A stretch of DNA of 11,452 nucleotides from a virus. Lineage: Duplodnaviria > Heunggongvirae > Uroviricota > Caudoviricetes. The notes beneath the pieces are model-generated. The model had not been told where the DNA came from. It made no database searches and saw only the letters and a list, made by a program, of their open reading frames with translations. The DNA is taken from the IMG/VR virus record IMGVR_UViG_2778261693_000002, positions 1 to 11,452 of that record, one strand, 5' to 3'. Of the stretch, positions 1,589 to 11,434 are shown in pieces; within the stretch, counting starts at the first letter, position 1; every line of letters begins with the position of its first letter. The translations under genes were made by a program, and so were the position numbers.

Positions 1589-4003
1589 TTAATACAGGTT
1601 TCGCCACTTATCATCTTCCTGCAAACGCTGGTTCCGATAGAAGATACGCAGGCCTGCTCCTGACGGAATACTGCCGCCGCGAAGCAGTAAATCGACCTCT
1701 TTCTCGCTGCCATCAAATCCCCTGGACTTCAGTTCATACACGAGCTGCTGTCGCTGATGATCTGTAATTCGCTGTTTGTAGTCTTTACGCCGTTTCGGTT
1801 TCACAAGGCGTAACCTTGCTGCCAGTTCCCGGCGCTCTTTTTTGCTCATACTGTGCAGGTAATCGTGCAACTCCTTGTCATCCATGCGGGTGATATCCGT
1901 TCTGGTATCTCCATCAGCTGATTTGTCTTTCCCTTGTTGGTACAAATTTTCAGCAAGGGGACAGTTATTGCCACGAGTCCAAGGGGCGCAAGCGCCCTGG
2001 TCGGCTGCCGCCTCCTGAACGTCAACGGCCTTACGAACCATTTTCCACTTCACTGCATGAGTGCAGATCTTGCCCTCTGCAATGGGTGACCAGATGCCAT
2101 AAATACGAATACCGTGATCGCCATAGGCGGTTGGCTCTTCGTTGATTTCATAAGCGGTTCTGATGAGGTGATATTTGCGGGGAACCAGTACGCCGCCCTG
2201 CTTCATGATGTAGGTGGCAAAACAACCAGCATCAGCAGCAGCCAGGATGGCATCAAGGCGCGGGTTATCCAGTACCGACGCACCTGCTTTTTTGTCACCC
2301 TGTTGCCTTGCCGCCTGACCAGCCAGCAATCGCAGTTCACGGTAAGCCTGACGCCCCGGAATGCCAAAGAAGCGGAATTGCTGAACACGATGCAGAGACG
2401 CCCAGGCATTAACGTATTCAGCGTTATCACGCAGGGATTTCCCCGTTTCCTTACTGATCTCGCCAGCCAGACCACGCCCGTCAATATTCTTACTGATATA
2501 TTTCGCAATGTAGCTTGTCGGCGTTCCTTTGCGCGGGTTTATCAGCTCAGACTTAAAGCGTGGCCCCGTGTTATTGCCCAGCTCCTCGCGGTCTTCACGG
2601 ATGGCAAACTTACGCAACAATGCAGTAATGGCGCGGCGGTCTTTTTTGCGCATGAAACACAACAGGTGCCAGTGAACTGTGCCATCATGATGCGGCTCAG
2701 CCACCCGCACGCCATACCAGCGCAACCCGGCTTTGTGCATAGCCTTACGAAATGCAGCAAACATGCCGACCAGATAATCGCTGCTTTGTCTTACTGTCGC
2801 GTTGGTCCAGGTCGGGTTTGGCCTGCCGTTATTTAGCGTGGAATGGAAACGTGACGGACAGGTGATGGTGTAGAAAACGGCGCAGTCACCGCGCATTTCC
2901 GCGATAAGCTCCAGGCCTTTAACACAGGCCATCATCTCGTTGCGGCGATGCGCCGGGTTGCTGCTGCTGGCGTTTACCACATCCTCCATGTTCAGCGTGT
3001 CGCCGTCTTCGTTCACCAGTTCATGAGAACGGAAAAACTCCAGCGACTTACGGCGCTGCTCACGTTTATGCATCACGGCTTCATAGCTGACATAGGGAGA
3101 TGCTTTTTTGCTGACCAGGCAGACAGCACGCAACTGCTCTTCCCGCCATTCGCAACGCATCTTCCATAATTTCCGATACCACCAGTCGGCGCACAGCATA
3201 CGCGCCAGCGAACCCGGAATGCGTTCATAAGGCACAGGTTTGCGGCGGTTTCTTTTCCGGCGGAGTTGCTCAAACGCAGGCGGTATGACATCCAGTCGCA
3301 GGGTTTCTGCAGCCACCTTTTCCCATGTCTTGCGGATTTCTTCTGGCTTAACATCATCGGAGGCGTACAAATCACCACAAGCGGCATCAAGACACATGCT
3401 CATATGCGCAGCGACAAGGGTAGACAGGCGTTTCACCTGATCCTGACTCATTTCAGGCAGGATCAGCAGACCGTCCAGCCCTTCATGGCTTGCCATAAAC
3501 CGAAAAGATGCAGATAGCTGGCTGTCGCGTACATGCTCCAGTCGTTCCAGACATGGCTTAATCGTCTCACGCAAATAGCGGGAATAAGCCTTTGGCCTGC
3601 CCAGGCTGCTGAAGTATTCAATACGTTGCATCAGCGGCTTGCTGATATGGGAAGGCTGGGCGTTGACGTCAGCCAGAATGACCATGTCTGGATTAAAACG
3701 CTGCTGCTCATGCGCCATCTTTGCCCGGCTAATGAGCTTATCCTGCTCCATTTCGCGTTGGACAGGATCACGGGATTCATTAAAGAAATAACGCTCCCAG
3801 ACCTGATCACTTAGTGCCTCGCGGCGCAGTTGTTCCTGCTCGTTATCGGTAGCGTACAAAGTGATCAGGTTTGAAAGCGCAGAAACCGGCGCAACTTCCA
3901 CCGGGTCCAGATAAGGGTTAATGGCCTTTTTCGGGCTGTTCCATGAGAATGCTGCGGCGACCTCGTTAAAGCCGCTGCAGTTGTTCATATCAGCATGGCT
4001 CAT
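1589..4003 (-). CDS. Replication initiation endonuclease, phage P2 gpA family (HUH rolling-circle initiator)
   Basis: 804-aa ORF; HUH motif VHWHLLCF and paired-tyrosine active-site motif YIAKYISK; ATG 4003 overlaps the upstream Dam stop (ATGA); RBS GGAG 8 nt upstream. Confidence 0.9.
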
Positions 4004-4857
4004 GCACGCACTCCGTACACGGCAGAACTATCCACGCCACGCGAAGGATCAAATCCCATCCAACAGCGCGGCCCGGAAACAGCGATGATTTCTGTTGCAG
4101 ATTTACTCTCACCAGCTGCTACACCGATGCTGCGTTTTGCCTTGATGTAGTGGTGAGTAAAATTGCGATACAGCGAACGGATCAGGGATGTATCACTGTT
4201 AGAAACAATGACCGGATGTCCTTCTGATGACCGATGTTCAAGAACGGATGCCAGGTGATACTGGTCATCTTCAGTGAAACCATCAGTGTGATAGCCGGAA
4301 AACGTACCGTCATACGGCGGATCGCAATACACCACATCCCCCACCTGCAGCATCGCCAGCGTTTCATCAAAGCTTGCGCAGATAAACGTTGCACGCTGGG
4401 CCTTTTCTGCAAATGCGCGAATTTCTTTTTCAGGGAAATACGGATTTTTATAATTACCGTAGGGAATGTTGAAATGCCCGCTCTTGTTATAGCGACATAA
4501 ACCACGGTAACCGTGACGATTGAGATACAGGAAATATACCGCTTTCATGAAATCAGTAATTTCAGTTGAGTAATTAAACTCCTGCCTTATGTTGTAATAA
4601 GCCACCTCCCTGTTTGCGATCTCAAATAAAACTCTGGCGCGAGATATAAACGATTCACAATCAGCAGCAACCTTTTTATAGAGGTTGATTAAATCAGGAT
4701 TAATATCCGCAACAAGATAGCTGGGGTAATCCGTCTCCATCATCACAGCACAGGAACCCGCGAAAGGTTCAACCAGTCGCGGGCCAGCAGGAAGATGTTT
4801 TTTCAGTTCGGACATAATGGCAGTTTTATTACCCGCCCATTTCAGGATGGTGCTCAT
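4000..4857 (-). CDS. dam: DNA adenine methyltransferase (Dam-like, N6-adenine, GATC class)
   Basis: 285-aa ORF with KWAGNK, FAGSCAV (AdoMet-binding region) and catalytic DPPY motif ([10 protein letters not shown]); RBS GGAGGTG; start overlaps the stop of the upstream gene (ATGA). Confidence 0.85.
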
Positions 4858-5081
4858 ACAGCACCTCCGTTGTAATGTTTACCTTTCAGCTCTGCGATTT
4901 CCTGACAGGTAATGCAAAGCTGCACTCCCGGAATGGCGCGGCGGCGCGCTGGCGGAATTGGCGCTTCACACTCAATGCAAAGCACGCGAGACACGCCAGG
5001 TGTTTTGGCACGGGCAGCACGGATGTGGCGCTGGCGTTCTTCTTCAACGCGCTGCTGTACGAGATCCATTGCATCAGCCAT
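4854..5081 (-). CDS. TraR/DksA-family C4 zinc-finger protein
   Basis: 75 aa; CIECEAPIPPARRRAIPGVQLCITCQ...KGKHY closely parallels F-plasmid TraR (LCEACGNPIPEARRKIFPGVTLCVECQ...RKHY) as remembered; RBS AGGAGA; ATG overlaps the preceding stop (TAATG). Confidence 0.8.
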   Translation of the reverse strand: MADAMDLVQQRVEEERQRHIRAARAKTPGVSRVLCIECEAPIPPARRRAIPGVQLCITCQEIAELKGKHYNGGAV

Positions 5082-5314
5082 TAGTGGATCTCCTGCGCTT
5101 CGTTCTGGATTGCTTCAGCGGTCACACGCAGCAGTTCTGCTGCTTCAACGTGGTTTAGCTGGCGGGATGAGATATGACACGCCAGGCTATCAAGGCGAGC
5201 TGCCATTGCTTCAGCCCTTGCCCGGCGTTCTTCCAGACGAGCCTCTGTCAGTAAAAGATTAAGACCTGCATCATCCGGTCCGGTTTTGGTCGTGAGGGTT
5301 TCAATATTACGCAT
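5081..5314 (-). CDS. Hypothetical phage early protein
   Basis: ORF in the early operon; the track start at 5320 is TTG, and the ATG at 5314 has RBS AGGAGA 7 nt upstream; stop overlaps the next start codon. Confidence 0.45.
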   Translation of the reverse strand: MRNIETLTTKTGPDDAGLNLLLTEARLEERRARAEAMAARLDSLACHISSRQLNHVEAAELLRVTAEAIQNEAQEIH

Positions 5315-5381
5315 AAGCAATTCTCCTGAATTTAGATAAAGGGATGCCCGGCGGGTTTACGCCATTAATTTCATTAGTTGG

Positions 5382-5723
5382 TTAATTCGGCATGGTTAGC
5401 CGTCTGGGAAATAAGCTCACCACTGCACGAAAATGATTCATTGCTTTAATCAACTCCCGCTTTTCGTCAGTGGTCAGCTCATTAATGCTGATGCTATGAC
5501 GTTCAGCTGGAATTTTTGCCATAAAGAATATGGCAGCCAGGGCTCGTTTATTTTGTTCGTTATTAATATCCCGTGGATCACGCATATCTTTAATAAACCG
5601 CTCAAGCTCTGACTCAATATTCAGGCCAAATACTTTCGCCCTTAACTCCGCAATGTGATTAAGTCCATTCAGGCGTTCACCGGGGCTTAATGGAACAGTC
5701 GCCGCAGCGCCTTCAATAGCCAT
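5382..5723 (-). CDS. Hypothetical phage early protein
   Basis: 113-aa ORF, ATG at 5723 preceded by GGGGGAA; co-oriented and tightly packed with neighbours; no recognisable motif. Confidence 0.5.
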   Translation of the reverse strand: MAIEGAAATVPLSPGERLNGLNHIAELRAKVFGLNIESELERFIKDMRDPRDINNEQNKRALAAIFFMAKIPAERHSISINELTTDEKRELIKAMNHFRAVVSLFPRRLTMPN

Positions 5724-5887
5724 TTGTTCCCCCGTTTTTTCGTAGATAGTTCTGCCAGCAATTCATCTTGTGAACGGCACGGATGCCAGCGTTTACCATC
5801 CTCCCCCATAATCCAGCCGTGACCATAATGCATTGCCGGGCTTTGTTTAACCAGCAGCGATGCAAATGATGGTTCTTTCGTCAACAT
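5687..5887 (-). CDS. Small hypothetical protein (position of 186 fil/dhr-type small early genes)
   Basis: Track ORF starts at GTG 5917 inside the CII-like gene; the ATG at 5887 with RBS GAGGTG begins after the CII-like stop. 66 aa from ATG. Low information. Confidence 0.35.
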   Translation of the reverse strand: MLTKEPSFASLLVKQSPAMHYGHGWIMGEDGKRWHPCRSQDELLAELSTKKRGNKWLLKALRRLFH

Positions 5888-5894
5888 AAGCACC

Positions 5895-6404
5895 TCACAG
5901 CAAACCAAATGAAGCACCGAGGCCAGTCACGGTATCAACTGCACTCGCCATCGCAGGATTAGCCTGTAAACGGGCCTGCAATGAAACAGCCGCCAGCGCC
6001 ATCAGTCGTGTTACAGAGTTAATGCTGCTGATAGCATCACGACGACCGGCGCAGGTTTTTACATCGCCAGACACCGCACCTGCAGCAACACGCCCGATCT
6101 CTGCGGTTGCACTCATGACGTAATGTGGCAGTTTCTCTTTTGCCACCTCATTAATCGGTACACATGGCAGACAATGAATCTGTGCCAGAAAACCATCTAT
6201 CAGCGTTGAGTCTTCTGTCAGATCGGTAAGCAGCCAGATTTCTGGCGCATTGAGCTGATGCGGTTGATCTGGGTTGAGTTTGTTTCGCAGTGTCTGAACA
6301 TTCATTCCTGCACGTTCTGCCAGCTTCGCCATATTGTGACGTAGTGCAAAAGCTCTACAGGCTTCATCAAAATACGGATGTTTGGAAATCTTGTAATCAA
6401 ACAT
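5895..6404 (-). CDS. CII-like transcriptional regulator (HTH), second gene of the lytic operon
   Basis: 169-aa ORF, the same length I recall for phage 186 CII and in the same position (directly after apl); HTH-like segment MAKLAERAGMNVQTLRNKL; RBS GGGGG 4 nt before ATG 6404. Confidence 0.55.
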   Translation of the reverse strand: MFDYKISKHPYFDEACRAFALRHNMAKLAERAGMNVQTLRNKLNPDQPHQLNAPEIWLLTDLTEDSTLIDGFLAQIHCLPCVPINEVAKEKLPHYVMSATAEIGRVAAGAVSGDVKTCAGRRDAISSINSVTRLMALAAVSLQARLQANPAMASAVDTVTGLGASFGLL

Positions 6405-6436
6405 GCTGCCCCCTTAGAAAGTTCCCATAATTGAAC

Positions 6437-6679
6437 TTACTTACCAACAATGACGCGGAAGTTGGAATGTCCGAGGGATTCACGGACCTGATCAGTTTTG
6501 TACATCAGATAACGCAGACTTACGCGGCCTTTGTTTTTTTCTTTCTTGACCATGTACTTAGCAAGTTGACCATGGTGAATTTTTTGGTAAACAGAGCCGC
6601 GGGAAATGCCCTCCCACTCTGCGAACTCTGCAGGTGTTGCCATCTCTTTTGGTACACGAATTGAAATATCAGTACTCAT
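6437..6679 (-). CDS. Apl/Cox-type excisionase and switch regulator
   Basis: 80-aa first gene of the minus-strand operon, convergent-promoter arrangement opposite cI as in 186/P2; HTH-like EFAEWEGISRGSVYQKIHHGQL. Confidence 0.65.
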   Translation of the reverse strand: MSTDISIRVPKEMATPAEFAEWEGISRGSVYQKIHHGQLAKYMVKKEKNKGRVSLRYLMYKTDQVRESLGHSNFRVIVGK

Positions 6680-6758
6680 AGTGCAGTATCTCTTACTTTG
6701 TGTGCGTGTTAGTTCGTTTTAGCCCGTCTCTTAAACTCTCACATCAAGAGACAAGAAA

Positions 6759-6787
6759 ACATTACGATCTTGATTCAAGATTGTCAA
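6759..6787 (-). promoter_or_regulatory. Candidate lytic promoter (pR-like) with palindromic operator in the spacer
   Basis: Minus strand reads TTGACA (revcomp of 6782-6787), 17-nt spacer, TAATGT (revcomp of 6759-6764); the spacer contains the perfect palindrome ATCTTGATTCAAGAT (6767-6781); a further TCAAGAG half-site lies at 6745-6751. Confidence 0.4.
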
Positions 6788-6800
6788 ATGGAGATTACCA

Positions 6801-7433
6801 ATGTTAAACATCAGAATGGGTTCCGATACGGGAGGTAAAGCAGCTATTGAGAGGCTGCTTGCGGCTTATGGATTCACAACTAAGCAGGCATTAAGTGAGC
6901 ACCTGAATGTCTCAAAAAGCACTATGGCAAACAGAGTGTTACGTGACAGCTTTCCTGCTGACTGGATAATTCAGTGCGCACTAGAAACCGGTGTTTCGTT
7001 GCTTTGGTTAGCTACAGGACAGGGAAGCATGAAAGCAGGATCTGAGACTGAAAAAAGATCTCACAATGAGAACAAACAAGCAATTAAACCGTTATCTAAA
7101 CTCATAACTCCATCTATTCCTAAAGGAACCTTGGAGAATGGACAACTCAGTATTGATGAAGAGATTTTCCTAGACCACAGCATATTACCTGCAAATTATG
7201 AAGAATCGATGTTCTTAGAAACCCCTACTGATTGTTATCTCATCGATAAATCAGTTAAACAAGTCAGCAATGGATTCTGGCTTATCAATATTGATGGAAT
7301 GATTATTATTGCAAAAATTATGCGGATTCCCGGCAATAAGATTGTAGTAAATCAAGATGAAGCGTCTTTCGAGTGCTCTGCTGATGATGTGGAAGTTATT
7401 GGGCGTGCAGTCAAAGTAATAAAGAGTATCTAA
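6801..7433 (+). CDS. CI-type immunity repressor (N-terminal HTH, C-terminal domain)
   Basis: 210-aa ORF immediately upstream of and co-transcribed with int (stop 7431-7433, int ATG 7436); HTH-like TTKQALSEHLNVSKSTMANRV; RBS GGAG; divergent from apl across the switch region. Confidence 0.7.
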   Translation: MLNIRMGSDTGGKAAIERLLAAYGFTTKQALSEHLNVSKSTMANRVLRDSFPADWIIQCALETGVSLLWLATGQGSMKAGSETEKRSHNENKQAIKPLSKLITPSIPKGTLENGQLSIDEEIFLDHSILPANYEESMFLETPTDCYLIDKSVKQVSNGFWLINIDGMIIIAKIMRIPGNKIVVNQDEASFECSADDVEVIGRAVKVIKSI

Positions 7434-7435
7434 AC

Positions 7436-8452
7436 ATGACTGTCAGAAAACAGCCAAACGGCAAATGGTTGTGTGAGTGCTATCCCAATGGACGCAATGG
7501 CAAGCGCGTGCGTAAGCAATTTGCTACGAAAGGAGAAGCCATTGCTTTTGAAAGCTTCACAATGGAAGAAGTGAATAAAAAACCGTGGCTAGGTGAAAAG
7601 GATGATCGGCGACGCCTATCAGAATTAATTGAGCTTTGGTATTCCCTGTATGGTCAGACACTCGCAGACCCCAGGCGCCTCATGGCGAAACTTAGAATTA
7701 TCTGTAATGGTCTAGGCGACCCCATCGCCTCAGAACTGACAGCCGGTGACTTTACGAAATACCGCGAAGCACGGTTAAAAGGCGACGTTCGTAACGAAGA
7801 CGGCACACTAATGTCGCCAGTAAAACCACGCACGGTGAATCTTGAGCAACGTAACCTATCATCGGTTTTCGGCACATTGAAAAAACTAGGCCACTGGTCA
7901 GCACCAAATCCTCTCGCCGGGCTGCCAACATTTAAAATCGCTGAGGGGGAACTGGCGTTCCTGACCTCGGAAGAAATTAAACGTCTGCTAGATGCCTGCG
8001 CTGATTCTCAAAACCCCAGTCTGCTTTTGATTGCAAAAATATGCCTGGCCACCGGCGCACGCTGGAGTGAAGCCGAAAACCTGCAGGGCCATCAGTTATC
8101 TAAATACCGCATCACTTATACCAAGACGAAGGGCAAGAAAAACCGCACCGTGCCGATATCTCAAGATCTGTATGACGAACTCCCCAAGAACAGAGGGAAG
8201 CTATTCACTCCGTGCAGAAAAGCCTTTGAACGGGCAGTAAAGCGAGCTGGCATCGAGCTGCCAGAGGGCCAATGCACTCACGTGCTACGTCATACATTCG
8301 CCAGTCATTTTATGATGAATGGCGGAAACATACTGGTGCTACGCGATATTCTGGGCCATGCCGATATAAAAATGACGATGATTTACGCCCACTTTTCGCC
8401 CGATCACCTTGAAGATGCGGTTACTAAAAACCCTTTATGCAACTTAAGATAA
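7436..8452 (+). CDS. int: Tyrosine site-specific integrase (P2/186 type)
   Basis: 338-aa ORF; catalytic-domain signature ARWSE...HVLRHTFASHF...GHADIKMTMIYAHF (R, H-x-x-R, Y); size and position typical of P2-like int. Confidence 0.9.
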   Translation: MTVRKQPNGKWLCECYPNGRNGKRVRKQFATKGEAIAFESFTMEEVNKKPWLGEKDDRRRLSELIELWYSLYGQTLADPRRLMAKLRIICNGLGDPIASELTAGDFTKYREARLKGDVRNEDGTLMSPVKPRTVNLEQRNLSSVFGTLKKLGHWSAPNPLAGLPTFKIAEGELAFLTSEEIKRLLDACADSQNPSLLLIAKICLATGARWSEAENLQGHQLSKYRITYTKTKGKKNRTVPISQDLYDELPKNRGKLFTPCRKAFERAVKRAGIELPEGQCTHVLRHTFASHFMMNGGNILVLRDILGHADIKMTMIYAHFSPDHLEDAVTKNPLCNLR

Positions 8453-8765
8453 AGTAACTTATGAAAATAAACTCAAATTATTTACAAATATAATATTCAG
8501 CAGGTTATTTATTCTTATTTAACTCTTCAGACTGAGATTAGGTTTTATTTATAGAATAAGATAATTTCATATCACAAAAAACCTGTAAGCCCTCATCTTT
8601 GTTGTATAAAAACATAAAAGATGCCATATTCAAAAAAGTAGAAAAGCATTGCAATGCAACATTAAAAATAAGCCAATAAAAAACAGTCATTAGAAAATGA
8701 AAAAACCAAAAACATTTTTTATCAAAGCTTCAGTCTGACTACTAGTTTGACTCTGCAATTAACTA

Positions 8766-8797
8766 TCAAGATGATCAATATTTATTGATCATCTTGA
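8766..8797. repeat. Perfect 15-bp inverted repeat (TCAAGATGATCAATA tt TATTGATCATCTTGA) containing two GATC sites
   Basis: Exact reverse-complement arms read directly from the sequence; lies 33-64 nt downstream of the deaminase-fusion stop; no flanking U-tract on either strand. Confidence 0.6.
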
Positions 8798-8829
8798 AGC
8801 TGCCCTCAGGAAAGATGAGTATAATATTT

Positions 8830-10566
8830 CTACTCAAGAAGATATTCTAACTCATCTTTTATCGGGATAACTTGCTCATAAAGTCGGTGATATGACTTCC
8901 CAATTGCGCCTCTGAATTGTATTAACTTTGGTGGCTTGTTACCTATATTAATAATATGGTCTTGGGCTATACCTGGGTAGGGATCAATAAATACAATTTC
9001 AGATATACCTAACTGATAAGCTTTTTTCGCACACAGCTCACAGGGACTGGCAGTTGTATATAACCTTCCCCCCTGAACGCCAATACCACCATATTTTGCA
9101 AGTTGTAAAAAAGCGTTTTCCTCAGCATGTAATGCACGTGTATGAACTTGATTACCTTTTTTATCTTTATCAAGATCATTATGTATATCTTTAAAACAAT
9201 AAGATAAGTTCCTGCCTCTATAAATATCACCAGTTTTATCTATCGCCCTAAAATTTAAGAGTTTCTCATTAGCCTTAATTCTGAAAGAACTATTATTTCT
9301 CTCATAATGACTGTACACTTTTTCATCAAAGTCGTTCATTAGGCCATCTAGCGATCTCATAGAGCAAGGAATCTGACCGTTGGCAACATCATTCCAACCT
9401 ACTGATTTTATTGAATTGTCACCATCAGTTACTACAGCTCCCACCTGTCTAGATATACAACCAGAGTTTAATTTTACCGTATACGCAACTTGCATAACCC
9501 TTTCCATTGCAGTAGGTGTTATCAGACCAGGATGCTTCATCAGTGCGATGTACCACGCTAATTGTGCTTTTAAAATATTATCATTATCAAATTCATTTTT
9601 TGGGTTAAAAATGTGTATATCTGATAGTTCAATACATTTAGTTACATTTGGATTAGTGAGATGTTTGTAAGAGTTATCACCTTTACCTGACTCTACAGAA
9701 TCTATTTCCTCTATCTGCTTTTCAGAAAACTTATGTAGTTTCCGCAAATAGTTTGTTCGATGTTCATCTGGGGCATTTATTGACATTAAATGAAATGCAG
9801 AATATCTATCCTTAAAAAATTTTGCTTCATATGGATTTCTAATAGCATCTATGACAATTAATGCGTTATCTCTTTTGCTTTTTCTTATTAATTTAATAAC
9901 CCTATTAATAGTTTCCGGCAAATGAAAAACAGATTTAGGTATAAACTCTTTATCTTCAAAATCGACTTCAATACGCCCACGGCGTCTAATTGACTTACCT
10001 GCTAACTGATAGACTGAAACATATAAATTTGAGTTTATCGCATTTAGTTCAGCTTTGAATTCCTTAGTAAATTTTCTAACTAACCTCAAAATTGATATAA
10101 ATTTATTAATCGTTTTTTCATTAAGCTTCAATTCACTATTATGATCAAGCAAATTCTCAATTACATTTTTAAATCTTGTTAAAATTAGATTATCTGAGAA
10201 TACACCAAAAGTTAATACATTATCTAAATGCTCTTTACTGATAGATTTATTAGATGACAGAATGAATTCAGAAGCTTCTTCAACTGTTAACATCAAAAGA
10301 TACGCTGAGATTAGGTCACTCACCTTAATTGAGTAAAAATTTTCCCAGTGATTTTCTGCGAATTTTTTAACTATATTATAACGATGGACATCCAATCCCT
10401 TGTAAAAACCCTGTAATTTACTTACATCAGGGAAGACTGTTTTTTCGTTTTCAAGAATATTAGCTGTTGTTGTGCAACCAGAACCAGTTCGACCTGTCAA
10501 ACCGACTAAAATAAACTGCCCATTTTCAAGGAAAAGCTCACTAACGAATTTTTTTTCTTTCATCAC
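8830..10566 (-). CDS. P-loop-kinase-like + dCMP/cytidine-deaminase fusion protein (AvcD/DCD-like candidate anti-phage deoxynucleotide deaminase)
   Basis: 578-aa ORF in low-GC DNA. N-terminal Walker-A-like VGLTGRTGSGCTT (10468-10503, Lys replaced by Cys). C-terminal deaminase signatures RQVGAVV, zinc ligands HAE (9121-9129) and PCELC (9031-9045). Start is GTG 10566 or ATG 10563. Family assignment from memory, no search. Confidence 0.75.
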   Translation of the reverse strand: MMKEKKFVSELFLENGQFILVGLTGRTGSGCTTTANILENEKTVFPDVSKLQGFYKGLDVHRYNIVKKFAENHWENFYSIKVSDLISAYLLMLTVEEASEFILSSNKSISKEHLDNVLTFGVFSDNLILTRFKNVIENLLDHNSELKLNEKTINKFISILRLVRKFTKEFKAELNAINSNLYVSVYQLAGKSIRRRGRIEVDFEDKEFIPKSVFHLPETINRVIKLIRKSKRDNALIVIDAIRNPYEAKFFKDRYSAFHLMSINAPDEHRTNYLRKLHKFSEKQIEEIDSVESGKGDNSYKHLTNPNVTKCIELSDIHIFNPKNEFDNDNILKAQLAWYIALMKHPGLITPTAMERVMQVAYTVKLNSGCISRQVGAVVTDGDNSIKSVGWNDVANGQIPCSMRSLDGLMNDFDEKVYSHYERNNSSFRIKANEKLLNFRAIDKTGDIYRGRNLSYCFKDIHNDLDKDKKGNQVHTRALHAEENAFLQLAKYGGIGVQGGRLYTTASPCELCAKKAYQLGISEIVFIDPYPGIAQDHIINIGNKPPKLIQFRGAIGKSYHRLYEQVIPIKDELEYLLE

Positions 10567-10758
10567 GTCCCACTTATGAATGTAAGAATATTCAACATAT
10601 TAATTATAATTTATTAACTCATTTTGTTCTAGATACTTGATGTAATGGCGGCATTTTGGCGACGGAGCATTAAAAACGCGTAAGACGAGCAAATACAACA
10701 AAACACTAACACACTGTTTTTAAATATAAATAGCTGTTTTTACTATACTAAAAATGGT

Positions 10759-10803
10759 ATGTAGGAATTTCGGACGCGGGTTCAACTCCCGCCAGCTCCA
10801 CCA
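10759..10803 (+). other. ssrA: Duplicated 3' end of the tmRNA gene ssrA (att core copy; tRNA-like T-arm, acceptor strand and CCA), not a complete gene
   Basis: ATGTAGGAATTTCGGACGCGGGTTCAACTCCCGCCAGCTCCACCA: T-stem GCGGG/CCCGC with T-loop TTCAACT, 3' acceptor strand and CCA; matches the remembered E. coli ssrA 3' end. The upstream ~300 nt is AT-rich and unlike tmRNA. Confidence 0.7.
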
Positions 10804-10836
10804 CTTGCTCTTCCGGATACGTCCGGAGAAATCCTG

Positions 10837-10871
10837 AAAGCCCGCATGGCACAAGCTCTGCGGGCTTTTTT
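10837..10871 (+). terminator. Rho-independent terminator downstream of the ssrA 3' end
   Basis: AAAGCCCGCA-(12-nt loop)-TGCGGGCTTTTTTGT: 7-10 bp GC stem followed by a T6 run; preceded by a tetraloop hairpin CCGGA-TACG-TCCGG at 10813-10826. Confidence 0.6.
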
Positions 10872-10915
10872 GTGTCTACTGTTGTCCGAGGATATCCAGC
10901 TAAATCCAGTGATTA

Positions 10916-10967
10916 TTGGTATACGTTTAGGTATACGGTAGGATGTATACCTAAACGCGTATACCAA
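10916..10967. repeat. Imperfect ~21-bp inverted repeat (TTGGTATACGTTTAGGTATAC ... GTATACCTAAACGcGTATACCAA) upstream of the integrase remnant
   Basis: Arms are reverse complements apart from a one-base insertion; centred ~45 bp upstream of the AAGGAG RBS of the following ORF. Confidence 0.5.
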
Positions 10968-10987
10968 TTCATGAAGGAGCGGCCAAA

Positions 10988-11434
10988 TTGGCAAGAACGA
11001 CACGCCCCCTGACCAACACAGAAGTACTGCGCGCTAAAGCGTTAGAAAAGGATCTAACGTTGCATGATGGCGATGGTCTTTTTCTACTCGTTAAAACGAA
11101 CGGTAAGAAGTTATGGCGTTTCCGTTATCAACGTCCGGCAACAAAGCAGCGGACAATGATGGGGCTAGGTACCTTCCCAGCTCTTTCACTTGCTGACGCC
11201 CGACGGTTAAGAGCGGATTACCTTTCCTTGTTAGCCAACGGAATTGACCCGCAAATTCAAGCTGAAATTGCAGAGGAACAGCAGCAAATCGCACAGGACA
11301 GTATTTTTACAACGGTCGCCGCTAAGGAAGGTGCGAATAAGCAGGTCATTTCTTCCCAAGCTGACTCGTTGATTAAAATTTCGCGGATCTGGGCCGATTT
11401 TTTTCCCGCAAACACATCGAATCAGCCTATTTAG
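10988..11434 (+). pseudogene. P4-type integrase, N-terminal fragment (~110 aa of arm-binding domain, then divergent tail and premature stop)
   Basis: TTG start with strong RBS AAGGAG; MARTTRPLTNTEVLRAKALEKDLTLHDGDGLFLLVKTNGKKLWRFRYQRPATKQRTMMGLGTFPALSLADARRLRADYLSLLANGIDP fits the N-terminus of P4/CP4-57-family integrases (~400 aa full length) as remembered; ORF ends at 148 aa with no catalytic domain. Confidence 0.55.

What the first reader, a model, noticed from the sequence alone, without database searches (positions are those of the whole stretch)
8453..10566. AT-rich cargo between int and the att core encodes a kinase-like + deaminase fusion resembling AvcD/DCD nucleotide-depletion defence
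Seen: a 578-aa minus-strand ORF in a ~2.3 kb low-GC block wedged between the integrase stop (8452) and the ssrA-derived att core (10759), where P2-like phages normally have only a short att arm. The N-terminus has a Walker-A-like loop GLTGRTGSGCTT (10468-10503) with Cys where the canonical Lys would be. The C-terminus has dCMP/cytidine-deaminase hallmarks: RQVGAVV, HAE (9121-9129) and PCELC (9031-9045), with an unusually long ~85-residue insert between the RQVGAVV...GWND segment and HAE. Established (from memory): P-loop-kinase + deoxycytidylate-deaminase fusions (AvcD, also described as DCD dCTP deaminase) deplete dC nucleotides on phage infection and are often carried on prophages. Inference: this is a prophage-borne AvcD-family effector, possibly a divergent subtype given the Lys-less P-loop and the insert.
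Basis: partly seen in the sequence, partly recalled or inferred. Interest (0 to 1): 0.85.

Follow-up and report, generated by a model that had tools for sequence, protein, structure and literature searches.

The report
Known prophage anti-phage dCTP deaminase
The gene is an intact copy of an already characterised bacterial anti-phage enzyme (a dCTP deaminase that starves infecting phages of one DNA building block), sitting in a known cargo slot of a P2/Fels-2-like prophage, so it is real but ordinary.

Summary
A 577/578-aa minus-strand ORF (8830-10563/10566) lies in a 31% GC block between the integrase stop (8452) and the ssrA-derived att core (10759). It has the motifs GLTGRTGSGCTT, RQVGAVV, HAE and PCELC.

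The protein passes NCBIfam's equivalog model "anti-phage dCTP deaminase" (424 bits, cutoff 400) and PADLOC dCTPase (E=1e-145). The same int-gene-att block occurs in 20 of 5,426 complete E. coli genomes, already annotated under that name.

It is 98% identical to the protein at the locus whose upstream DNA matches (99.5%) the E. coli U09 construct that Tal et al. tested. It is 72% identical to their AW1.7 enzyme.

The "divergent subtype" idea fails:
- The Cys-for-Lys P-loop occurs in 131 of 138 family representatives that cover the motif, none with Lys. AW1.7 has the identical motif, and its G29A + C30A mutant loses defence.
- The 86-residue insert is also typical of the family (median 81.5).

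Fels-2 and SEN8 have the att arm directly after int, and phage Cartapus carries another gene there. A 2026 preprint already describes int-att as a minor P2 defence hotspot.

No AvcI-like RNA was detected. Novelty: already known. Interest: low.

The parts
8830..10563 (-). Anti-phage dCTP deaminase (DCD/AvcD family) CDS. It is 577 aa from ATG 10563; the mechanical ORF starts one codon upstream at GTG 10566 (578 aa).
   Evidence: NF041025 scores 424.1 bits against a cutoff of 400. PADLOC dCTPase E=1.4e-145. The protein is 98% identical (564/577) to RefSeq WP_021565872.1, which is annotated 'anti-phage dCTP deaminase'.
10468..10503 (-). Nucleotide-binding loop GLTGRTGSGCTT (residues 22-33 in 578-aa numbering). 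Cys31 replaces the Walker-A Lys. The motif resembles CoaE-type GLTGGIGSGKST (motif recalled from memory).
   Evidence: invariant in 16 of 16 sequences; Cys in 131 of 138 representatives, Lys in none. In AW1.7 the G29A + C30A mutant abolishes defence. Weak similarity to dephospho-CoA kinase.
9031..9129 (-). Catalytic zinc site of the deaminase domain: H480-A-E482 (9121-9129) and P-C509-E-L-C512 (9031-9045).
   Evidence: H, E and the first Cys are kept in 149 of 150 representatives and the second Cys in 148.
9196..9459 (-). Family-typical insert region of the deaminase domain, holding invariant Cys370 (9457-9459), Cys401 (9364-9366) and Cys457 (9196-9198). Cys370 and Cys401 correspond to the residues mutated in AW1.7 (C370A and C401A, described there as predicted zinc ligands).
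   Evidence: Cys370 and Cys401 align with Cys residues of T4 dCMP deaminase.
10567..10643 (-). Cargo-specific upstream stretch (77 nt, 23% GC), presumed to hold the promoter. A perfect -10 TATAAT lies at 10608-10603 with a weak -35, and GGGA lies before the start codon.
   Evidence: The consensus scan found no full sigma-70 promoter, so the promoter is inferred.
8453..8829 (.). AT-rich spacer (26% GC) between the int stop and the DCD stop. It contains a perfect 15+15 palindrome at 8766-8797 with two GATC sites. No annotated gene lies here, and the 50-aa ORF 8538-8690 has no family hit.
   Evidence: The spacer is absent in the other allele class: in strain 127 the gap is 13 nt.
10644..10758 (.). 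Conserved attP arm of Fels-2-like phages. In phages without cargo it begins a few bases after the integrase stop codon.
10759..10803 (+). ssrA (tmRNA) 3'-end att core. The native ssrA terminator hairpin follows at 10853-10867.
7436..8452 (+). P2/186-type tyrosine integrase; its stop codon is the left border of the cargo slot.

Best explanation
The ORF is an intact single-gene anti-phage dCTP deaminase, the family called DCD by Tal et al. and AvcD by Hsueh et al. It is carried as accessory cargo in the int-attP slot of a Fels-2/186-like (P2-family) prophage integrated in ssrA.

Expected mechanism, by homology:
- When an infecting phage shuts down or tampers with host transcription, the enzyme becomes active.
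- Its C-terminal zinc-dependent dCMP-deaminase-type domain (H480, E482, C509, C512) converts dCTP (and dCMP) to dUTP/dUMP.
- This depletes deoxycytidine nucleotides and stalls phage DNA replication.
- The N-terminal dephospho-CoA-kinase-like domain has a Lys-less GSGC loop and is required for activity. It most likely binds a nucleotide rather than transferring phosphate.

Shown here: family membership, conservation of all residues with mutational support, near-identity to a tested orthologue locus, and the cargo-slot anatomy.

Inferred: activity, trigger, promoter and the role of the Cys loop.
For: Family membership:
- NF041025 'anti-phage dCTP deaminase' equivalog scores above its curated cutoff.
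- PADLOC dCTPase E=1.4e-145; Pfam dCMP_cyt_deam_1.
- The AlphaFold model (pLDDT 79) matches dCMP deaminases (2w4l, 4p9e, 1vq2, 7fh4) and a dephospho-CoA kinase (4zo4).

Existing annotation: 20 complete E. coli genomes carry the same block at 95-99% identity, annotated under this name.

Link to tested proteins:
- The upstream part of Tal et al.'s U09 construct runs through the ssrA core and att arm and is 92% identical to window 10567-10803.
- The U09-type locus in FDAARGOS_1337 matches that construct at 99.5%, and its protein is 98% identical to this one.
- The protein is 72% identical to an AW1.7-type protein. Residues G29/C30 and C370/C401, whose mutation abolishes defence and dCTP depletion in AW1.7, are conserved here.

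Cargo slot:
- Fels-2 and SEN8 have the att arm directly after int.
- Cartapus has a different gene there.
- The int-att hotspot of P2 is described in 10.64898/2026.02.27.708500.
Against: - No experiment was done on this exact allele, and U09's full protein sequence could not be read because the supplement is truncated.
- The prophage shows some decay: an IS1 sits at the window's left end. Expression of the gene is therefore not guaranteed.
- No consensus sigma-70 promoter was found upstream by the simple scan.
- Whether an RNA antitoxin is needed is unresolved.
Confidence: 0.93

Rival explanations
1. The locus is a two-part AvcID-type type III toxin-antitoxin system. An unrecognised small RNA, encoded in the 5' leader/att arm or in the 377-nt 3' spacer, would hold the deaminase inactive until transcription shutoff. 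This is a rival about regulation, not about the enzyme.
For: - In Vibrio, Proteus and an ETEC strain, AvcD is inhibited by a cognate sRNA encoded immediately 5' in the same orientation. These sRNAs share no sequence similarity, so homology searches cannot find them.
- The 377-nt spacer with a perfect palindrome is unexplained.
Against: - Only 77 nt upstream are cargo-specific. The next 115 nt are the attP arm, which is also present in phages without the gene.
- The 194-nt leader folds no better than shuffled sequence (z=+1.19).
- The upstream stretch is not conserved between allele classes.
- There is no Rfam hit other than ssrA-derived ones.
- Tal et al.'s functional, tolerated AW1.7 construct had only 83 nt upstream of the ATG.
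- The spacer is absent in strain 127, where the gene ends 13 nt from int.
Confidence: 0.12
2. It is a nucleotide-metabolism gene that serves the phage's own replication, like T4 cd (dCMP deaminase feeding dTTP synthesis), not a defence gene.
For: The C-terminal domain is most similar to phage and cellular dCMP deaminases: T4 1vq2 at E=2.4e-10, and S-TIM5. It also hits PHROG dCMP deaminase families.
Against: - The full-length two-domain architecture matches the defence family end to end.
- ComEB scores 38.5 bits, far below its cutoff of 219.
- The gene sits in a variable cargo slot, is transcribed against the phage early operon, and is AT-rich relative to the phage.
- Orthologues protect against phages experimentally.
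- No record among 50,697 GenBank phage genomes carries it.
Confidence: 0.03
3. It is an inactive relic in a decaying prophage.
For: - An IS1 element disrupts the neighbouring classic hotspot gene at the left end of the window.
- Related loci exist where only the gene and the att arm survive without an integrase.
Against: - The ORF is full length with no frameshift.
- All family-invariant residues are retained, with 13 substitutions out of 577 relative to the U09-type protein.
- Retention of the gene in prophage remnants argues for selection on it rather than decay.
Confidence: 0.03

Closest known systems
E. coli U09 dCTP deaminase (DCD), validated in Tal et al. 2021/2022 (bioRxiv 10.1101/2021.04.26.441389)
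   Same: - Same length (577 aa).
- Same position next to the ssrA att core and att arm of a Fels-2-like prophage.
- The construct's upstream DNA is 92% identical to the window.
- The protein at the U09-type locus in FDAARGOS_1337 is 98% identical.
   Different: - There are 13 amino-acid substitutions.
- In the window the prophage is followed by a second integrase-bearing island rather than directly by ypjA.
- U09's own full sequence could not be read.
E. coli AW1.7 dCTP deaminase (576 aa), the biochemically characterised DCD of Tal et al.
   Same: - 72% identity end to end with an AW1.7-type protein (P0013).
- Identical GLTGRTGSGCTT loop.
- The mutated residues G29/C30 and C370/C401 are conserved.
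- Same insert.
   Different: - A different allele class in a different element: in AW1.7 the gene lies between a tyrosine recombinase and tRNA-Phe.
- The upstream region is unrelated.
Vibrio cholerae AvcD/AvcI (DcdV/DifV, VC0175), Hsueh et al.
   Same: - Same two-domain architecture (P-loop kinase-like + dCMP deaminase).
- Same chemistry (dCTP/dCMP deamination).
- Catalytic Glu and the CxxC motif are required.
- Activated by transcription shutoff.
   Different: - AvcD is 532 aa and is controlled by a cognate upstream sRNA, AvcI.
- No such RNA is detectable here, and there is hardly room for one within the cargo.
Defence cargo in the int-att slot of P2-like phages (de Sousa/Rocha-type analysis, bioRxiv 10.64898/2026.02.27.708500; hotspot concept from Rousset et al. 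2022, PMC9122126)
   Same: [quoted passage not shown]
- Related phages have the slot empty (Fels-2, SEN8) or occupied by a different gene (Cartapus).
   Different: - This is a minor hotspot, holding 3% of P2 defence systems according to the preprint.
- The classic hotspot (between gpA and the portal gene) holds, in this window, an IS1-disrupted unknown gene.
T4-type dCMP deaminase (Cd, PDB 1vq2)
   Same: - Same fold and catalytic HAE...PCxxC motif.
- It also has an extended segment between the two motif blocks.
- Its Cys residues align with C370 and C401.
   Different: - No N-terminal kinase-like domain.
- A metabolic role for the phage.
- The query's insert is about 25 residues longer.

Membership tests
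Anti-phage dCTP deaminase (DCD / AvcD; NCBIfam NF041025, PADLOC dCTPase) | Whole-protein score above the curated family threshold | tested here: met
   NF041025 (equivalog) scores 424.1 bits against a cutoff of 400, covering residues 18-570 and the full 437-position model. PADLOC PDLC02373 E=1.4e-145.
Anti-phage dCTP deaminase (DCD / AvcD; NCBIfam NF041025, PADLOC dCTPase) | One polypeptide longer than 350 aa with an N-terminal kinase-like P-loop domain and a C-terminal zinc cytidine/dCMP deaminase domain (Tal et al.'s criterion) | tested here: met
   Pfam dCMP_cyt_deam_1 covers residues 354-526. There is a weak AAA_18/dephospho-CoA kinase signal at residues 20-61. The AlphaFold model matches dCMP deaminases and the dephospho-CoA kinase 4zo4.
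Anti-phage dCTP deaminase (DCD / AvcD; NCBIfam NF041025, PADLOC dCTPase) | Catalytic H-A-E and P-C-x-x-C zinc motifs | tested here: met
   H480/E482 and C509/C512 are present. They are kept in 148-149 of 150 family representatives. The equivalent E384A and C411A/C414A mutations inactivate V. cholerae AvcD.
Anti-phage dCTP deaminase (DCD / AvcD; NCBIfam NF041025, PADLOC dCTPase) | Lys-less nucleotide-binding loop G-S-G-C, whose mutation (G29A + C30A in AW1.7) abolishes defence | tested here: met
   The motif is identical to AW1.7's. It is invariant in 16 of 16 sequences, and Cys occurs in 131 of 138 representatives with no Lys.
Anti-phage dCTP deaminase (DCD / AvcD; NCBIfam NF041025, PADLOC dCTPase) | Conserved Cys370/Cys401, mutated in AW1.7 with loss of defence | tested here: met
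   Both are present at the same alignment positions and in 150 of 150 representatives.
Anti-phage dCTP deaminase (DCD / AvcD; NCBIfam NF041025, PADLOC dCTPase) | dCTP-to-dUTP conversion on infection, and protection against phages | not testable with these tools
   This is known only for orthologues: U09 and AW1.7, and AvcD.
AvcID type III toxin-antitoxin system | A cognate small RNA antitoxin encoded immediately 5' of the deaminase gene on the same strand | tested here: inconclusive
   - The leader fold is not better than shuffles.
- Only 77 nt upstream are cargo-specific, and the rest is the attP arm.
- Nothing is conserved between allele classes.
- Known AvcI RNAs share no sequence similarity, so absence cannot be proven in silico.
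Housekeeping dCMP deaminase (ComEB / Dcd-type) | A score above the family cutoff and a conserved chromosomal context | tested here: not met
   TIGR02571 ComEB scores 38.5 bits against a cutoff of 219.45. The gene is present in only 38 of 5,426 E. coli genomes, and in every context examined it lies in a mobile element or next to an integration site.
Defence cargo in the int-att slot of P2-like phages | The same flanks (integrase stop and attP arm) in related phages, with the slot empty or holding different genes | tested here: met
   - Fels-2 and SEN8: the arm starts 3 nt after the int CDS.
- Cartapus: a 401-aa gene occupies the slot.
- 29 E. coli genomes have int and the arm contiguous.
- A second DCD allele occupies the same slot in strain 127.
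- The slot is described.

The most novel reading that the evidence does not exclude
The gene's presumed promoter lies only about 40-80 nt from the attP arm that Int and IHF bind, and everything further upstream changes on excision (host DNA in the lysogen, the other phage arm in the circle). Expression of the deaminase could therefore be coupled to the integration state of the prophage. Alternatively, the unexplained 377-nt AT-rich 3' spacer with its perfect GATC-bearing palindrome could encode a regulatory RNA or protein-binding site specific to this allele class, an AvcI substitute placed 3' rather than 5'. Neither is excluded by the evidence and neither is supported by it.
Probability: 0.06. 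Interest if true: 0.45.

Novelty: already known. Interest (0 to 1): 0.12.

Why it matters
As a discovery it matters little. The gene family, its mechanism, its near-identical E. coli orthologue and even its unusual int-att location are all published or already annotated in RefSeq.

It is useful as a clean worked example in three ways:
- It pins down the exact borders of the int-att cargo slot in ssrA-integrating Fels-2-like phages (int stop codon to about 115 nt before the core).
- It shows that the tested U09 construct came from this very slot.
- It documents that the Cys-for-Lys P-loop and the long deaminase insert are family hallmarks rather than signs of divergence.

One question stays open, for the whole family rather than this locus. 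What does the Lys-less kinase-like domain do, and does the 576-585-aa subfamily need an RNA antitoxin? No solved structure of the family was found in the PDB copy.

Tried and rejected
- **AvcI-like RNA upstream.** The fold of 10567-10760 gave z=+1.19. Rfam gave only ssrA-derived hits, namely the tmRNA 3' end and a partial IsrM match that is just the ssrA end and terminator. Aligning upstream regions across four allele contexts showed conservation only in the att arm and core. Rejected as unsupported, but not excluded.
- **Consensus promoter/terminator scan.** No minus-strand promoter was found upstream of the gene and no terminator downstream. The TATAAT at 10608-10603 was found by eye and script.
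- **Small ORF 8538-8690 in the spacer.** No hit in Pfam, PADLOC or PHROGs. Treated as chance in AT-rich DNA.
- **Divergent-subtype idea.** Rejected by family-wide residue counts and insert lengths.
- **Solved structure of the family.** None was found by sequence or by fold. Only single-domain dCMP deaminases and a dephospho-CoA kinase came up.
- **Sequenced phage genomes carrying the gene.** tblastn against 50,697 records gave one distant 27% hit only.
- **Direct comparison with V. cholerae AvcD and ETEC H10407 AvcD.** Not possible, because the sequences were not retrievable. H10407 is not among the 38 E. coli genomes with DNA-level similarity.
- **U09's full protein.** It could not be read because the supplementary sequence is truncated after about 400 nt. 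The link is made through a genome with a 99.5% identical upstream region.
- **Model coordinates.** These could not be inspected, so clustering of the four extra conserved Cys into a second zinc site is untested.
Full report
**Observation**

The ORF list shows a 578-aa minus-strand ORF at 8830..10566 starting at GTG. RefSeq homologues start one codon later at ATG 10563, giving 577 aa. The integrase ORF ends at 8452.

GC content is 31.4% over 8453-10643, against 49.0% for the phage early region 1589-8452.

- GLTGRTGSGCTT at 10468-10503
- RQVGAVV at residues 373-379
- GWND at residues 390-393
- HAE at 9121-9129
- PCELC at 9031-9045
- 86 residues between GWND and HAE

Identity to native ssrA runs from 10759 to 10803. 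This rests on 100% matches annotated as ssrA and an Rfam tmRNA 3'-end match with E=4e-11. The native ssrA terminator hairpin follows at 10853-10867.

**What the gene is**

Three independent profile libraries agree:
- Pfam dCMP_cyt_deam_1, E=7.8e-15, over residues 354-526
- PADLOC dCTPase, E=1.4e-145, over residues 8-574
- NCBIfam NF041025 'anti-phage dCTP deaminase', an equivalog model, at 424.1 bits against a curated cutoff of 400

The housekeeping ComEB model scores 38.5 bits against a cutoff of 219.

An AlphaFold2 model built on 64 homologues (mean pLDDT 79, pTM 0.74) matches human, S-TIM5, T4, S. mutans and PBCV-1 dCMP deaminases with its C-terminal part. Among P-loop kinases, it matches a dephospho-CoA kinase (4zo4) with its N-terminal part.

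No solved structure covers the full architecture.

**It is already known**

Megablast of 8400-10900 finds the same int-gene-att block in 20 of 5,426 complete E. coli genomes at 95-99% identity. The gene is annotated 'anti-phage dCTP deaminase' in 19 of them and 'deoxycytidylate deaminase' in one. A more sensitive search finds homologues in 38 genomes, all under the former name except that one.

Tal et al. (bioRxiv 10.1101/2021.04.26.441389) experimentally validated two E. coli genes of this family, from strains U09 (577 aa) and AW1.7 (576 aa).

The link to U09:
- The readable part of the U09 construct contains the reverse complement of the ssrA core and the att arm.
- It aligns to window 10567-10803 at 92% identity.
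- The same 399 nt match E. coli FDAARGOS_1337 at 99.5%.
- There the adjacent 577-aa protein is 564/577 (98%) identical to the window's protein.

So the window carries an allele of the U09-type gene at the same locus.

The link to AW1.7:
- The AW1.7 N-terminus read from the construct is identical to protein P0013 over that stretch.
- P0013 is 72% identical to the window's protein end to end.

**The 'divergent subtype' idea**

The GLTGRTGSGCT loop is invariant in 16 homologues of 58-89% identity.

I aligned the query with the 150 best-scoring 50%-identity cluster representatives (36-58% identity) from a search of 1.84 billion proteins. That search gave 449 hits at E<=1e-30. In this alignment:
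- The Walker-A Lys position is Cys in 131 of the 138 representatives that cover it, and never Lys.
- C311 is kept in 147 of 150, C370 and C401 in 150 of 150, and C457 in 149 of 150.

In AW1.7, the G29A + C30A mutant (the same Gly-Cys) and the C370A + C401A mutant abolish both defence and dCTP depletion. The alignment shows these are residues G30/C31, C370 and C401 in the 578-aa numbering used here.

The segment between GWND and HAE is 86 residues here. The family median is 81.5, and 142 of 150 representatives fall in the 70-99 range. T4 dCMP deaminase also has an extended segment there, and its Cys residues align with C370 and C401.

The loop is clearly of the dephospho-CoA-kinase type. The evidence is a weak TIGR00152 match at residues 20-42 and a JGI annotation 'deoxycytidylate deaminase/dephospho-CoA kinase'. 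The resemblance to the CoaE motif GLTGGIGSGKST is from my own memory. Loss of the Lys suggests nucleotide binding rather than phosphotransfer; that is my inference.

**Anatomy of the cargo slot**

The left part of the window is a Fels-2/186-like early region:
- gpA replication protein
- Dam methylase
- CII
- Apl/Rha-like regulator
- CI repressor
- integrase

In Fels-2 and Salmonella phage SEN8 the int CDS ends at locus position 3997, and homology to window 10645-10803 begins at position 4001. Alignments place the right border of the insertion at about window 10643-10644 and the left border at the int stop codon.

The cargo is thus 8453-10643, 2,191 nt in total:
- a 377-nt spacer at 26% GC
- the gene
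- 77 nt of upstream sequence at 23% GC

Escherichia phage Cartapus has a different 401-aa gene in the same slot.

A synthetic 'empty site' query (int 3' end joined to the arm) matches 29 E. coli genomes contiguously at 77-82% identity.

A second deaminase allele class (73.6% nt identity, 585 aa) occupies the same slot in E. coli strain 127, ending 13 nt from int.

[quoted passage not shown] The location itself is therefore described.

**Regulation**

In Vibrio, Proteus and an ETEC strain, AvcD is inhibited by a cognate sRNA (AvcI/DifV). It is encoded directly 5' on the same strand and is lost on transcription shutoff.

I found no sign of such an RNA here:
- The 194-nt leader folds no better than shuffled sequence (z=+1.19).
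- 115 of its nucleotides are the attP arm, shared with phages that lack the gene.
- The remaining 77 nt are not conserved between allele classes.
- Rfam gives only ssrA-derived matches.

Tal et al.'s functional AW1.7 construct had only 83 nt upstream of the ATG.

A perfect TATAAT lies at 10608-10603 with a weak -35. The simple scan reported no full consensus promoter.

Known AvcI RNAs share no sequence similarity, so absence cannot be proven computationally. I give the two-component reading 0.12.

**Mechanism, by homology**

On infection, the enzyme is triggered by interference with host transcription. It deaminates dCTP and dCMP to dU nucleotides, depleting dC nucleotides and stalling phage DNA replication.

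Both domains are needed.

Everything about activity in this allele is inferred. What is shown here is membership, conservation of all residues with mutational support, and orthology of the locus.

**Verdict**

The reasons it gave for special interest do not hold. The gene is a new instance of a known, already annotated and experimentally characterised system in a described location. Novelty: already known. Interest: 0.12.

Noticed in passing
window 1-~212 and 186-836: The left end of the window is an IS1 copy (matches in 5,104 of 5,426 genomes, many places each). It interrupts the cargo gene of the classic P2 hotspot between the DinI-like/gpA genes and the portal gene. In an intact relative (L012 2586-3977) that gene encodes a 463-aa hypothetical protein (WP_001583354.1) with no convincing Pfam or PADLOC match. 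The 216-aa ORF 186-836 is therefore a truncated gene reading into IS1, and the RefSeq start corresponds to window 689.
   Followed up: partly
window 8766-8797: A perfect 15+15-nt palindrome (TCAAGATGATCAATA aa TATTGATCATCTTGA) with two GATC sites lies 33 nt downstream of the deaminase stop codon, in the 26% GC spacer. It is not followed by a T-run, so it is not a canonical terminator. The phage encodes a Dam-type methylase (4000-4857). Its function is unknown.
   Followed up: no
window 10759-11434: There are tandem elements at ssrA. After the att core and the native ssrA terminator hairpin (10853-10867) comes the N-terminus of a second integrase (10988-11434, Arm-DNA-bind_3). In a related genome (L001) this second integrase heads a P4-like satellite carrying HEPN and DUF262 genes. 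The prophage therefore sits between ssrA and an older ssrA island.
   Followed up: partly
L003/L004/L005 3772-5755 and 8095-8139: A 75%-identical deaminase (P0007, 584 aa) lies next to smpB/ssrA in another genome. A diverged copy of the same att arm and core sits directly upstream of the gene, but there is no integrase. This looks like a prophage remnant that has kept only the defence cargo.
   Followed up: partly
L010 (E. coli AW1.7) 3286-8559; L011 (E. coli strain 127) 5001-7785: The biochemically characterised AW1.7 deaminase also lies between a tyrosine recombinase and an integration target (tRNA-Phe) in an unrelated element. A 585-aa allele occupies the int-att slot of a Fels-2-like prophage in strain 127. 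The integrase-to-att position seems to recur for this gene family.
   Followed up: partly
L006 (phage Cartapus) 2798-4003: The gene occupying the same int-att slot in Cartapus is annotated 'putative RES protein, NAD+ binding domain' but has no Pfam hit at E<=0.01. It may be another uncharacterised cargo or defence gene.
   Followed up: no
window 8830-10563 vs the phage genome collection: None of the 50,697 GenBank phage records encodes a close homologue (best hit 27% identity in a 5-kb metagenomic fragment), although PHROGs holds a full-length family (phrog_8118, 'unknown function'). The gene is so far seen only in prophages and islands of bacterial genomes, not in genomes deposited as phage records.
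   Followed up: partly
window 10766-10871: The Rfam 'IsrM' match (31 bits against a gathering score of 376) is only the ssrA 3' end plus its terminator, not an IsrM gene.
   Followed up: yes
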